Shown piece by piece: positions 62,378 to 63,200 of a DNA stretch of 64,000 nt; the stretch's first letter is position 1; each line of letters opens with the position of its first letter. Below the pieces are notes generated by a model, which was not told the origin of the DNA, made no database searches, and saw only the letters and a program-made list of their open reading frames with translations. This DNA comes from Escherichia coli. Its GTDB lineage: Bacteria; Pseudomonadota; Gammaproteobacteria; Enterobacterales; Enterobacteriaceae. The stretch lies in assembly GCF_044647545.1 (NCBI RefSeq), contig NZ_CP172818.1; one strand, 5' to 3'. Both the position numbers and the translations under genes were made by a program.

Positions 62378-63200
62378 GGGCTATCCTCTTTCTCAGGGGG
62401 GAAAGGGAGAAAGACGGAGAGGCCGCGCAGGGATCGGAGACCCGGAGGTGCAACCGGAGGGGTGGGGGGGCGGGGGCCGGGGGGGTGGAGGTGTTGGGGG
62501 GGGGCAGGGAGACGGCGAGGTGCTTGCGTTTCTGTTGCCGCGTTTGGGGGAGGGAGAGGGGAGGGGGAGGGGGGGGGGAGTGTGGGGGGGGGGGGGGGGA
62601 GGGGGGGGGGGGCTGAGGGGGGGGGAGCGGTGGGGCTGGAGGGAGGCGGGGGCCGCGGGGTGGTGGGCGGGGCGGGGGGGGGGGGGCGGCGGGGGGCGTT
62701 TCCCGGGGGGGGGGGGCAGGCGAGGGGGGGGAGGGAGAGGGGGGAGCGGTGACGGCCCCTGGGCTTTTTTGGGGGAGGAAGGAGGGGGGGGGGGGGGGGG
62801 AGGAGAGAGGGCGGGGGGCGGGGGGGGGGGGGGGGGGGGGGGGGGGGGGGGGGGGGGAGAGGAGAGGGGGGGAGCGGGGAGAGGGGGTGCCGCCGGTGCG
62901 GGGGGGGGGGGGGGGGGGGGGGGGGGGGGGGGGGGGGGGGGGGGGGGGGGGGGGGGGGGGGGGGGGGGGGGGGGGGGGGGGGGGGGGGGGGGGGGGGGGG
63001 GGGGGGGGGGGGGGGAGGGGGGGGGGGGGGGGGGGGGGCGGGGGGGGGGGGGGTGTCGTGCTCGCGATGCCACGGAGGTGGCGGCGTGTTGGCTGTGGTG
63101 GAGGGACCGGCGCTTTCTACGTTGCCCTCGGCGCGGTCGGTCCTGTCGCGCGCTTCGGGCGCCCTAGGGGAGGGATAAGAGCGATCGGTGCGAATCGCGA
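62378..63200. other. extreme poly-G low-complexity block (single G run over 100 nt); probable artefact
   Basis: Nearly pure G with occasional a/c from about 62450 to 63050, including an uninterrupted G run of roughly 115 nt at about 62900-63015; bounded by the mdtM 5' end and the yjiA-proximal intergenic region. Confidence 0.65.

What the first reader, a model, noticed from the sequence alone, without database searches (positions are those of the whole stretch)
62378..63200. About 0.8 kb of near-pure poly-G between mdtM and yjiA; the restriction-modification region expected here is absent
Seen in sequence: an uninterrupted G run of roughly 115 nt plus several runs of 20-60 nt, which is far outside the homopolymer lengths of natural enterobacterial DNA. 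The block truncates the mdtM 5' end. From memory of the K-12 reference, mdtM and yjiA are separated by a ~25-kb region carrying yjiPRSTV, mcrBC, symE, hsdRMS and mrr; none of that is present here. The ORFs in the block (Gly- or Pro-rich, e.g. 62393..63073, 62448..63167, 62749..63258) are translation artefacts. The likeliest explanations are an assembly or synthesis artefact, masking or generation, or a real deletion whose junction was mis-assembled.
Basis: partly seen in the sequence, partly recalled or inferred. Interest (0 to 1): 0.6.

Follow-up and report, generated by a model that had tools for sequence, protein, structure and literature searches.

The report
Poly-G block is garbled assembly junk
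The 0.95-kb G-rich stretch between mdtM and yjiA is not real bacterial DNA but garbled sequence, one of three such blocks in this window, two of which are recognisably mangled insertion sequences, so it reflects how the sequence was produced and not the biology of the strain.

Summary
Window 62378-63326 (949 nt) matches no E. coli genome. It is 65% G and contains an uninterrupted run of 116 G (62900-63015). It replaces the first 31 nt of mdtM and ends 6 nt beyond the yjiA stop codon.

It is not biology. The same window holds two more blocks of the same kind, a C-rich one at 2213-2815 and a G-rich one at 42880-43544. Both are degraded copies of real insertion sequences (IS2 and IS1A). One "favoured" base is kept, A and T are mostly deleted, and part of IS1 is written twice. 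In E. coli ST648 and 042 an intact IS1A sits at the position of block 2, between flanks that are 99.97-100% identical to the window.

The right edge of the poly-G block (63199-63326) is a degraded K-12-type mrr 3' end, about 86% identical. The interior of the block could not be assigned to anything.

The "missing" restriction region is a K-12-centred expectation. Genomes whose flanks match the window (SE15, ST648) naturally carry only 1.8 kb there.

The most likely cause is a consensus or gap-filling failure at a repeat junction in an assembly. A RefSeq genome (MLI104K2) carries comparable junk. Machine generation or deliberate corruption cannot be excluded.

Verdict: artefact, low interest.

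The parts
61176..62377 (-). mdtM (multidrug efflux MFS transporter). It is intact except that the first 31 nt (10 codons plus 1 nt) are lost into the junk.
   Evidence: 60000-62381 is 99.9% identical to SE15. The base-level boundary is shown. The ORF listed at 61176-62453 has a spurious TTG start inside the junk.
62378..63198 (.). G-rich junk that cannot be assigned to any source. G rises from about 48% to 100% and then falls back to about 40%.
   Evidence: No significant similarity to IS1, IS2, the SE15-type interval, the K-12 mdtM-yjiA interval, any held locus, the 5,426 E. coli genomes or PLSDB plasmids.
62900..63015 (+). Uninterrupted run of 116 G, followed by G22 and G14 runs that are each separated by a single non-G base.
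   Evidence: The chance expectation is about 1e-63.
63199..63291 (+). Degraded copy of the last ~100 nt of a K-12-type mrr gene, including its TGA stop at 63289-63291.
   Evidence: 951 genomes match this stretch inside mrr at 80-90% identity. The alignment to K-12 is 86% identical. Ten bases are deleted, 7 of them T, and T>G substitutions occur. Local-alignment z-scores against shuffles are 15-29.
63292..63326 (.). REP-like junction downstream of yjiA. It is a blend of the K-12 and SE15 versions and occurs nowhere else.
   Evidence: Alignments. There is no exact match in JGI metagenome contigs or GTDB representative genomes. No E. coli genome matches at 90% or better.
63333..64000 (-). yjiA (GTPase), 3' part, which runs off the end of the window.
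   Evidence: 63327-64000 is 100% identical to SE15, ST648 and others.
42880..43544 (-). Sister block 2: G-rich junk (including a G25 run) that is a garbled IS1A, with the transposase on the minus strand.
   Evidence: In ST648, window 38808-42879 is 100.000% identical and 43545-46891 is 99.97% identical, with an intact IS1A in between. The alignment to IS1 reaches z=25 and includes exact 25-mers. Error channel: G kept 92%, A and T about 34% deleted, every inserted base a G. IS1 positions ~485-555 are written twice.
2213..2815 (+). Sister block 1: C-rich junk (C11 and C14 runs, 4% T) that contains a garbled and compressed IS2. It interrupts the P4-type integrase gene intB.
   Evidence: It replaces 3,516 nt of the K-12 arrangement. 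Colinear matches to IS2 have z-scores of 6-13. C is kept 89% and T is deleted 85%. Every natural genome found has the K-12 arrangement at this site.

Best explanation
The block is non-biological sequence, produced when a genome sequence was built across a place that the underlying data did not resolve.

The window is a real E. coli chromosome segment. It has ST648/SE15-like core alleles and a K-12-like KpLE2 island. At three structurally difficult junctions the consensus or gap-filling step produced degraded output. Two of those junctions hold multi-copy insertion sequences (IS2 and IS1A). The third is the mdtM-yjiA junction.

The degradation has a consistent pattern:
- True bases are progressively dropped, A and T most of all.
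- One base (G, or C on the other strand) is over-emitted.
- Where no information was left, the output collapsed into a homopolymer (G116).

At the mdtM-yjiA site the true sequence probably contains at least a remnant of mrr next to yjiA. What lies between mdtM and that remnant cannot be recovered from the window.

**Shown:**
- The block is absent from all the databases searched.
- There are three blocks of the same kind.
- Blocks 1 and 2 derive from IS2 and IS1A.
- The right edge of block 3 derives from mrr.
- The errors are base-specific and dominated by deletions.
- Comparable junk exists in a public RefSeq assembly.

**Inferred:** the cause is an assembly, polishing or gap-filling failure. 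One candidate is a per-column consensus caller working on an empty or chaotic read pile-up. Another is unpolished filler from a single poor long read.

I put about 0.97 on the tract being non-biological and about 0.6 on this specific cause.
For: 1. **Not reproduced anywhere.**
   - None of 5,426 complete E. coli genomes carries the block; the best hits cover only the flanks.
   - There is no exact match to a 50-mer from the junk in GTDB representative genomes, IMG/VR or JGI metagenomes.
   - There is no plasmid match.
2. **Composition.** The G116 run has a chance expectation of about 1e-63.
3. **Same kind of block three times in 64 kb**, while the rest of the window is clean. Window 5875-41375 is 99.71% identical to K-12, and the differences are clustered and dominated by transitions.
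4. **Block 2 is a garbled IS1A.** It lies where ST648, 042 and other strains have an intact IS1A between flanks that are 99.97-100% identical.
5. **Block 1 is a garbled IS2**.
6. **The error channel is consistent across blocks.** The favoured base is kept 89-95% of the time, A and T are deleted 32-85% in blocks 1 and 2, and insertions are almost only the favoured base. The blocks are shorter than the true sequence (665 against 776 nt for block 2; 603 against 1,331 nt or more for block 1).
7. **The right edge of block 3 is a K-12-type mrr 3' end** at 86% identity, with deletions mostly of T.
8. **Other insertion sequences in the window are clean.** The divergent IS1F-type copy (20669-21439), IS4 and IS30 are not garbled.
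9. **Precedent.** RefSeq genome NZ_CP116925.1 has 2.2 kb of homopolymer junk (runs up to A239, C76, G65) inside a vgrG-rhs repeat locus, with an island of real vgrG sequence in the middle.
Against: - The platform and the software cannot be identified from the sequence.
- Deletions are not enriched in homopolymers in blocks 1 and 2 (0.21 against 0.21, and 0.36 against 0.46). Ordinary nanopore errors are enriched there (PMC8486125), and the error level here (28-100%) far exceeds normal raw-read or consensus error.
- The junk starts inside unique, universally conserved sequence, 9 nt (block 2) and 14 nt (block 3) before the point at which natural genome types diverge. In block 1 it also swallows about 2.2 kb of unique sequence if the true arrangement is K-12-like. 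A pure "repeat-only gap" model therefore does not fit exactly.
- The mrr-like edge and the blended K-12/SE15 junction are unexpected next to SE15/ST648-type flanks.
- Part of IS1 is written twice. This is unusual for a read-derived consensus.
- The source record was not found, so the method of assembly is unknown.
Confidence: 0.6

Rival explanations
1. The blocks were written by a sequence model or a corruption procedure rather than by a sequencing or assembly pipeline. Examples are language-model generation or in-filling, or deliberate degradation of chosen segments of a real genome. In this reading, the model partly recites memorised elements (IS1, IS2, and the K-12 mrr end that precedes yjiA in the reference genome), skips tokens, stutters, and falls into a self-reinforcing G or C repetition.
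For: - Collapse onto a favoured base with skipped bases, rather than homopolymer-linked errors.
- The repeated pass over IS1 positions ~485-555.
- A K-12-type mrr end next to SE15/ST648-type flanks, and a junction that blends the two natural alleles and exists in no database.
- The window is not found in any collection searched.
- The junk starts inside conserved sequence, before the natural breakpoints.
Against: - Block 2 reproduces an IS1A in the orientation and at the site where only one natural lineage (042, ST648 and relatives) has it. Its right boundary is exact to the base. That requires access to the true sequence, not just a prior.
- The flanks are 99.97-100% identical to natural genomes over 3-4 kb, and a 15.6-kb stretch is 100% identical to K-12. 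This is unlike free generation.
- Block lengths differ from the true lengths, so this is not fixed-length in-filling.
- Real public assemblies contain comparable junk.
Confidence: 0.3
2. Poly-G read tails from two-colour Illumina chemistry (no signal is called as G) were pulled into a short-read assembly and joined the mdtM and yjiA contig ends.
For: - G is the over-represented base in blocks 2 and 3.
- Such poly-G reads are a well-known artefact (my own knowledge, not tested here).
Against: - Illumina errors are substitutions. Here the recognisable parts are dominated by deletions and are compressed.
- Block 1 is C-rich with A retained.
- The blocks are 600-950 nt long, well beyond a read length.
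- No adapter sequence is evident at the edges in the sequence as read.
Confidence: 0.05
3. The tract is real DNA. In this reading the strain has a real rearrangement between mdtM and the mrr 3' end and carries a real hyper-expanded G tract there.
For: The flanks are natural, and an mrr remnant suggests a real structural difference from SE15/ST648-type genomes.
Against: - No natural genome has anything similar.
- Two sister blocks in the same window are demonstrably corrupted versions of known elements.
- A 116-nt G run is far beyond any homopolymer elsewhere in the window, where the maximum is 9 nt. From general knowledge it would be unstable in replication.
- The mrr remnant carries errors of the same type as the other blocks.
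Confidence: 0.01

Closest known systems
Junk region in the RefSeq complete genome of E. coli MLI104K2 (NZ_CP116925.1, about 2504276-2506512)
   Same: A kilobase-scale block of homopolymer-rich nonsense. It is bounded by perfectly normal sequence, lies at a repeat-type locus (vgrG-rhs), is shorter than the genes it replaces, and contains an island of recognisable real sequence.
   Different: All four bases form long runs there (A239, C76, G65), whereas only G or C does here. The locus and the strain are different. Its cause is also undocumented.
Residual errors in repeats of long-read or hybrid bacterial assemblies (repeats that short-read polishing cannot fix because the reads map to several places)
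   Same: Errors are confined to multi-copy elements, while the unique flanks are essentially perfect. This holds for blocks 1 and 2.
   Different: From my own knowledge, such residual error is typically well under 1%. Here 28-100% of the bases are wrong, unique bases next to the repeat are also lost, and the deletions are not linked to homopolymers (against PMC8486125).
Poly-G artefact of two-colour Illumina sequencing
   Same: Long G runs with no biological basis.
   Different: That artefact is limited to read length and involves substitutions only. It would not give garbled IS copies dominated by deletions, or a C-rich block with A retained.
Delta(mrr-hsdRMS-mcrBC) laboratory deletions (DH10B-type) and natural absence of the immigration control region
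   Same: There are no hsd or mcr genes between mdtM and yjiA.
   Different: The flanks are not K-12 alleles (98.0% and 94.0% to K-12 against 99.9-100% to SE15/ST648). Natural genomes that lack the region carry brnT and brnA plus an IS1 pseudogene there, and these are also absent from the window.
Phase-variable homopolymeric tracts and G-quadruplex-forming tracts in bacteria
   Same: A run of G.
   Different: From my own knowledge, natural tracts are roughly 8-20 nt long, lie in promoters or at the 5' ends of coding sequences, and are conserved at a locus across strains. This run is 116 nt within about 600 nt of 79% G, and no other genome has it.

Membership tests
Non-biological sequence (assembly, consensus or generation artefact) | Not reproduced in independent genomes of the same species or in other collections | tested here: met
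   0 of 5,426 complete E. coli genomes carry it. There are no exact matches in GTDB representative genomes, IMG/VR or JGI metagenomes and no plasmid match.
Non-biological sequence (assembly, consensus or generation artefact) | Composition and homopolymer lengths outside the natural range of the surrounding genome | tested here: met
   A G116 run against a maximum of 9 nt elsewhere in the window. The core is 79% G. The chance expectation is about 1e-63.
Non-biological sequence (assembly, consensus or generation artefact) | Residual, error-laden similarity to a known true sequence at the same site | tested here: met
   Block 2 against IS1A (z up to 25). Block 1 against IS2. The right edge of block 3 against mrr. 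The interior of block 3 could not be assigned.
Non-biological sequence (assembly, consensus or generation artefact) | Lack of read support, or low per-base quality | not testable with these tools
   No reads, quality values or assembly metadata are available for the window.
Repeat-associated assembly error (a collapsed, unpolished or gap-filled multi-copy element) | The block coincides with a multi-copy repeat and its boundaries coincide with the ends of the repeat | tested here: inconclusive
   Block 2: the right boundary is exact and the left is 9 nt outside IS1. Block 1: it contains IS2, but about 2.2 kb of unique sequence is also missing if the true arrangement is K-12-like. Block 3: no repeat was identified. 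Copy number in the source genome is unknown.
K-12-type deletion of the immigration control region | K-12-type flanks, with the mrr-hsd-mcr genes removed between them | tested here: not met
   The flanks are SE15/ST648 alleles, and in those lineages the natural interval is 1.8 kb without hsd or mcr.
IS-mediated deletion junction | A recognisable IS element abutting the truncated genes | tested here: inconclusive
   This is met for the fim deletion at block 2 (IS1A). At block 3 no IS signal was found in the junk. No natural genome has an IS1 at that position in mdtM; PO06101 has one upstream of an intact mdtM.
Two-colour Illumina poly-G artefact | Substitution-type loss towards G within a read length, without insertions or deletions | tested here: not met
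   The errors are dominated by deletions and the sequence is compressed. The blocks are 600-950 nt long, and one block is C-rich.
Natural homopolymeric or G-quadruplex tract | The tract is present at the locus in related strains and has a plausible length | tested here: not met
   It is absent from all related genomes, and it is 116 nt long.

The most novel reading that the evidence does not exclude
The G-rich tract is physically present in the isolate. That would make it a kilobase-scale, nearly pure poly-G insertion (G116 core) at a real mdtM-to-mrr rearrangement, and a natural enterobacterial homopolymer or G-quadruplex tract an order of magnitude longer than any known.
Probability: 0.01. 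Interest if true: 0.8.

Novelty: not a real feature. Interest (0 to 1): 0.06.

Why it matters
**Biologically it does not matter.**
- There is no new element, gene or mechanism here.
- The Gly-rich and Pro-rich ORFs should not be annotated.

**Practically it is a quality flag.**
- This window contains at least three corrupted segments: 2213-2815, 42880-43544 and 62378-63326.
- Any inference about intB/IS2, the fim deletion junction, the mdtM start or the restriction-modification content of this strain should not rest on this sequence.
- Comparable junk sits in at least one RefSeq "complete" E. coli genome (MLI104K2, vgrG-rhs locus). A simple entropy or homopolymer screen of public assemblies would therefore be worthwhile.
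- The real biology nearby is ordinary. It consists of a natural IS1-mediated loss of the fim operon, shared with E. coli 042 and ST648, and natural variation of the immigration control region.

Tried and rejected
- **Simple G-substitution of the SE15-type sequence.** Rejected. The window has non-G bases where the reference has G, and the lengths differ (945 against 1,824 nt).
- **Assigning the interior of block 3 to a source.**
  - Ordinary local alignment with shuffled controls found nothing against the SE15 interval (tested in the window's orientation only), or against either strand of IS1A, IS2 and the K-12 19.4-kb interval.
  - An alignment with cheap deletions has too high a null score to be informative.
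  - A homopolymer-compressed alignment was uninformative because its null is mis-calibrated: every target gave a similar z-score.
  - blastn with short words against all held loci gave scores within the range of shuffles.
  - Distant BLAST against all E. coli genomes hit only another junk region.
  - There was no hit among plasmids.
- **Block 2 as a degraded fim operon.** Rejected. It is IS1.
- **Locating the source record.** Exact-pattern scans of GTDB representative genomes, IMG/VR and JGI metagenomes, using a 50-mer from the junk and the hybrid junction, found nothing.
- **A natural genome with IS1 at the window's mdtM breakpoint.** None was found. PO06101 has an IS1A upstream of an intact mdtM.
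- **A natural genome with IS2 abutting the edges of block 1.** None was found. All have the K-12 arrangement.
- **BHUCD01 as the same strain as the window.** Rejected (97.4-99.6% identity). It is a K-12-guided chimera.
- **Nanopore-type homopolymer deletions as the error signature.** Not supported for blocks 1 and 2.
- **A milder form of the same corruption elsewhere in the window.** None was found. The differences from K-12 look like natural divergence.
- **Literature search for the MLI104K2 genome or for this artefact.** Nothing specific was found.
- **Technical note.** Loci L005, L011 and L014 never became readable by the scripts, so ST648 was not compared over 46891-62381. Its flanks were compared through.

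Full report
**1. The observation**

Reading 61500-64000 directly shows normal sequence up to about 62377. Then comes an increasingly G-rich stretch, a pure G run, and a return to normal-looking sequence.

- The sliding composition profile peaks at GC 0.935 and GC skew +0.91.
- A homopolymer scan of the whole window finds G116 at 62900-63015, G38 at 62820-62857, G22 at 63017-63038 and many shorter runs.
- 62382-63326 contains 611 G in 945 nt. The core 62461-63050 is 79% G.
- The chance expectation for a G116 run in 64 kb is about 1e-63.

**2. Exact limits and flanks**

Against E. coli SE15, window 60000-62381 is 99.9% identical and 63327-64000 is 100% identical. Thirty or more other genomes give the same result, including ST648.

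At base level the first difference is a T>G change at 62378, and three following bases agree by chance. The block is therefore 62378-63326.

- On the left it removes the first 31 nt of mdtM.
- On the right it ends 6 nt beyond the yjiA stop codon.
- No complete E. coli genome covers more than the two flanks.

**3. What is "expected" between mdtM and yjiA**

In K-12 the interval is 19.4 kb and carries mrr, hsdRMS, symE, mcrBC, yjiT and other genes. None of these genes is anywhere in the window apart from the mrr fragment described in section 7.

The window's flanks are not K-12 alleles, however. In the genomes that share its alleles (SE15, ST648 and KFu023; 042 and ECONIH4 have the same layout with more divergent alleles), the interval is only 1,824 nt. 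It holds a dienelactone-hydrolase remnant, an IS1 pseudogene, brnT and brnA. Only 951 of 5,426 genomes have mrr next to yjiA.

The absence of the restriction region is therefore ordinary natural variation and does not point to a K-12-type deletion.

**4. The decisive finding: the block is one of three**

The same homopolymer and entropy scan flags two more regions: 2213-2815 (C11 and C14 runs, 47% C, 4% T) and 42880-43544 (a G25 run, 46% G).

Everything else in the window aligns at 97% or better to a handful of natural genomes. For example, 5875-41375 is 99.71% identical to K-12. That stretch includes 15.6 kb of 100% identity, and the differences are clustered and dominated by transitions.

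**5. Block 2 is a garbled IS1A**

- ST648 is 100.000% identical to window 38808-42879 and 99.97% identical to 43545-46891. Between these it has an intact IS1A (767 nt as extracted here).
- This is a natural nanC-IS1-'fimH junction, that is, a fim-operon deletion. E. coli 042 and many other genomes share it.
- The window's 665-nt block aligns colinearly to that IS1. The alignment contains exact stretches of 21-25 nt, and z-scores reach 25 against shuffled controls.
- The right boundary of the block is exactly the end of the IS1. The left boundary lies 9 nt inside sequence that is conserved in all genome types.
- Error channel in the central part: G is retained 92% of the time, C 74%, and A and T 54%. 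A and T are deleted 36% and 32% of the time. Every inserted base is a G, and most substitutions are towards G.
- IS1 positions ~485-555 appear twice, at 43139-43209 and again at 43321-43389.

**6. Block 1 is a garbled IS2**

- It replaces 3,516 nt of the K-12 arrangement: the 3' part of intB, IS2 and part of a pseudogene.
- Several colinear pieces match IS2 with z-scores of 6-13.
- A permissive alignment reads like IS2 with its T bases removed.
- C is retained 89% of the time, G 58%, A 46% and T 9%.
- Every natural genome found has the K-12 arrangement at this site.

**7. Block 3 itself**

- **Right edge (63199-63291).** Its last 128 nt are the only assignable part. 63199-63291 is the end of a K-12-type mrr gene at 86% identity. 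Ten bases are deleted, seven of them T, and there are T>G substitutions.
- **Junction (63292-63326).** This is a REP-like junction that mixes K-12-specific and SE15-specific bases. It occurs in no E. coli genome, metagenome contig or GTDB representative genome.
- **Interior (62378-63198).** This gave no significant similarity to anything tried.
- **G profile.** The G fraction climbs from 0.28 to 1.00 and falls back to about 0.4. The block looks like the same degradation process run to completion.

**8. Interpretation**

A real DNA tract is excluded for practical purposes, for four reasons:
- It is unique to this sequence.
- It is physically implausible.
- It sits alongside two blocks that are provably corrupted versions of known elements.
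- The one recognisable part of it carries the same kind of errors.

The best-supported cause is a failure of consensus or gap filling where an assembly crossed unresolved junctions. Two of those junctions are at multi-copy insertion sequences. Divergent or single-copy elements in the window (the IS1F-type copy at 20669-21439, IS4 and IS30) are clean.

A precedent exists in RefSeq. E. coli MLI104K2 has 2.2 kb of homopolymer junk (A239, C76, G65) inside a vgrG-rhs locus, with an island of real vgrG sequence within it.

A mechanism that would fit is a per-column consensus caller, or a single very poor long read, that drops uncertain bases and emits a constant base where the pile-up is empty. This would explain why deletions dominate, why one base is favoured, and why derailment starts a few bases before the breakpoint. 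This mechanism is inference and was not tested here.

**9. What does not fit neatly**

- Deletions are specific to particular bases (A and T). They are not linked to homopolymers, unlike ordinary nanopore errors (PMC8486125).
- Unique bases next to the repeats are also lost.
- The mrr-type edge and the blended junction are odd next to SE15/ST648-type flanks.
- IS1 is partly written twice.

These features are also what a sequence model that partly recites memorised elements would produce. I therefore keep machine generation or deliberate corruption as a serious rival (about 0.3).

Against that rival:
- Block 2 reproduces a lineage-specific IS1 at its exact site.
- The flanks are 99.97-100% identical to natural genomes over kilobases.

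Two-colour Illumina poly-G alone does not explain garbling dominated by deletions, or the C-rich block.

**10. Verdict**

- The "missing RM region" framing is K-12-centric, and "nothing of it is present" is wrong in detail.
- The feature is not real biology, so novelty is nil and interest is low.
- The true sequence between mdtM and yjiA in this strain remains unknown. It probably includes an mrr remnant. It needs reads or PCR to settle.

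Noticed in passing
window 2213-2815: A second junk block. It is C-rich (C11 and C14 runs, 4% T), interrupts the P4-type integrase gene intB downstream of tRNA-Leu (leuX), and contains a garbled, compressed IS2. It replaces 3.5 kb of the K-12 arrangement.
   Followed up: yes
window 42880-43544: A third junk block. It is G-rich (G25 run at 43468-43492) and is a garbled IS1A, with part of the element written twice.
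   Followed up: yes
window 42574-43720 (nanC side to the fimH 3' end): The strain lacks fimB through most of fimH; only the last 179 nt of fimH remain. This natural IS1-mediated deletion of the type 1 fimbrial operon, with the same junctions, occurs in E. coli 042, ST648 and many other genomes.
   Followed up: partly
L015 about 2196-4432 (NZ_CP116925.1, E. coli MLI104K2, about 2504276-2506512): A RefSeq "complete" genome contains 2.2 kb of homopolymer junk (40 runs of 12 nt or more; A239, C76, G65) between the start of a vgrG gene and the end of an rhs core. A short island of real vgrG sequence lies inside it. The search reported a second matching place in the same record, which I did not inspect.
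   Followed up: partly
L010 and L017 (NZ_CM183442.1, E. coli BHUCD01): This 4,641,498-bp chromosome looks like a chimera built on the K-12 reference. It has K-12-identical hsdR, mrr and mcrBC proteins next to an SE15-type yjiA allele, and core genes such as yjiH and yjiN are frameshifted. It is not the same strain as the window (97.4-99.6% identity).
   Followed up: partly
window 5875-41375: The KpLE2-like island (fec, yjhF-I, sgc, yjhPQ, and intact IS30 and IS1F copies) is 99.71% identical to K-12 MG1655, including a 15.6-kb stretch with no differences. The adjacent core segments are ST648/SE15-like. The switch occurs at about 38808-38850, which corresponds to the island boundary in ST648.
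   Followed up: partly
L016 4830-5597 (NZ_CM129865.1, E. coli PO06101): This strain has an extra IS1A inserted just upstream of an intact mdtM, next to the usual IS1 pseudogene, brnT and brnA. It shows that this intergenic spot is a recurrent IS1 target.
   Followed up: no
window 61176-62453 (minus strand): Mechanical ORF calling gives mdtM a spurious TTG start and 26 junk-encoded N-terminal residues. An automatic annotator would probably call a full-length but wrong MdtM here.
   Followed up: partly
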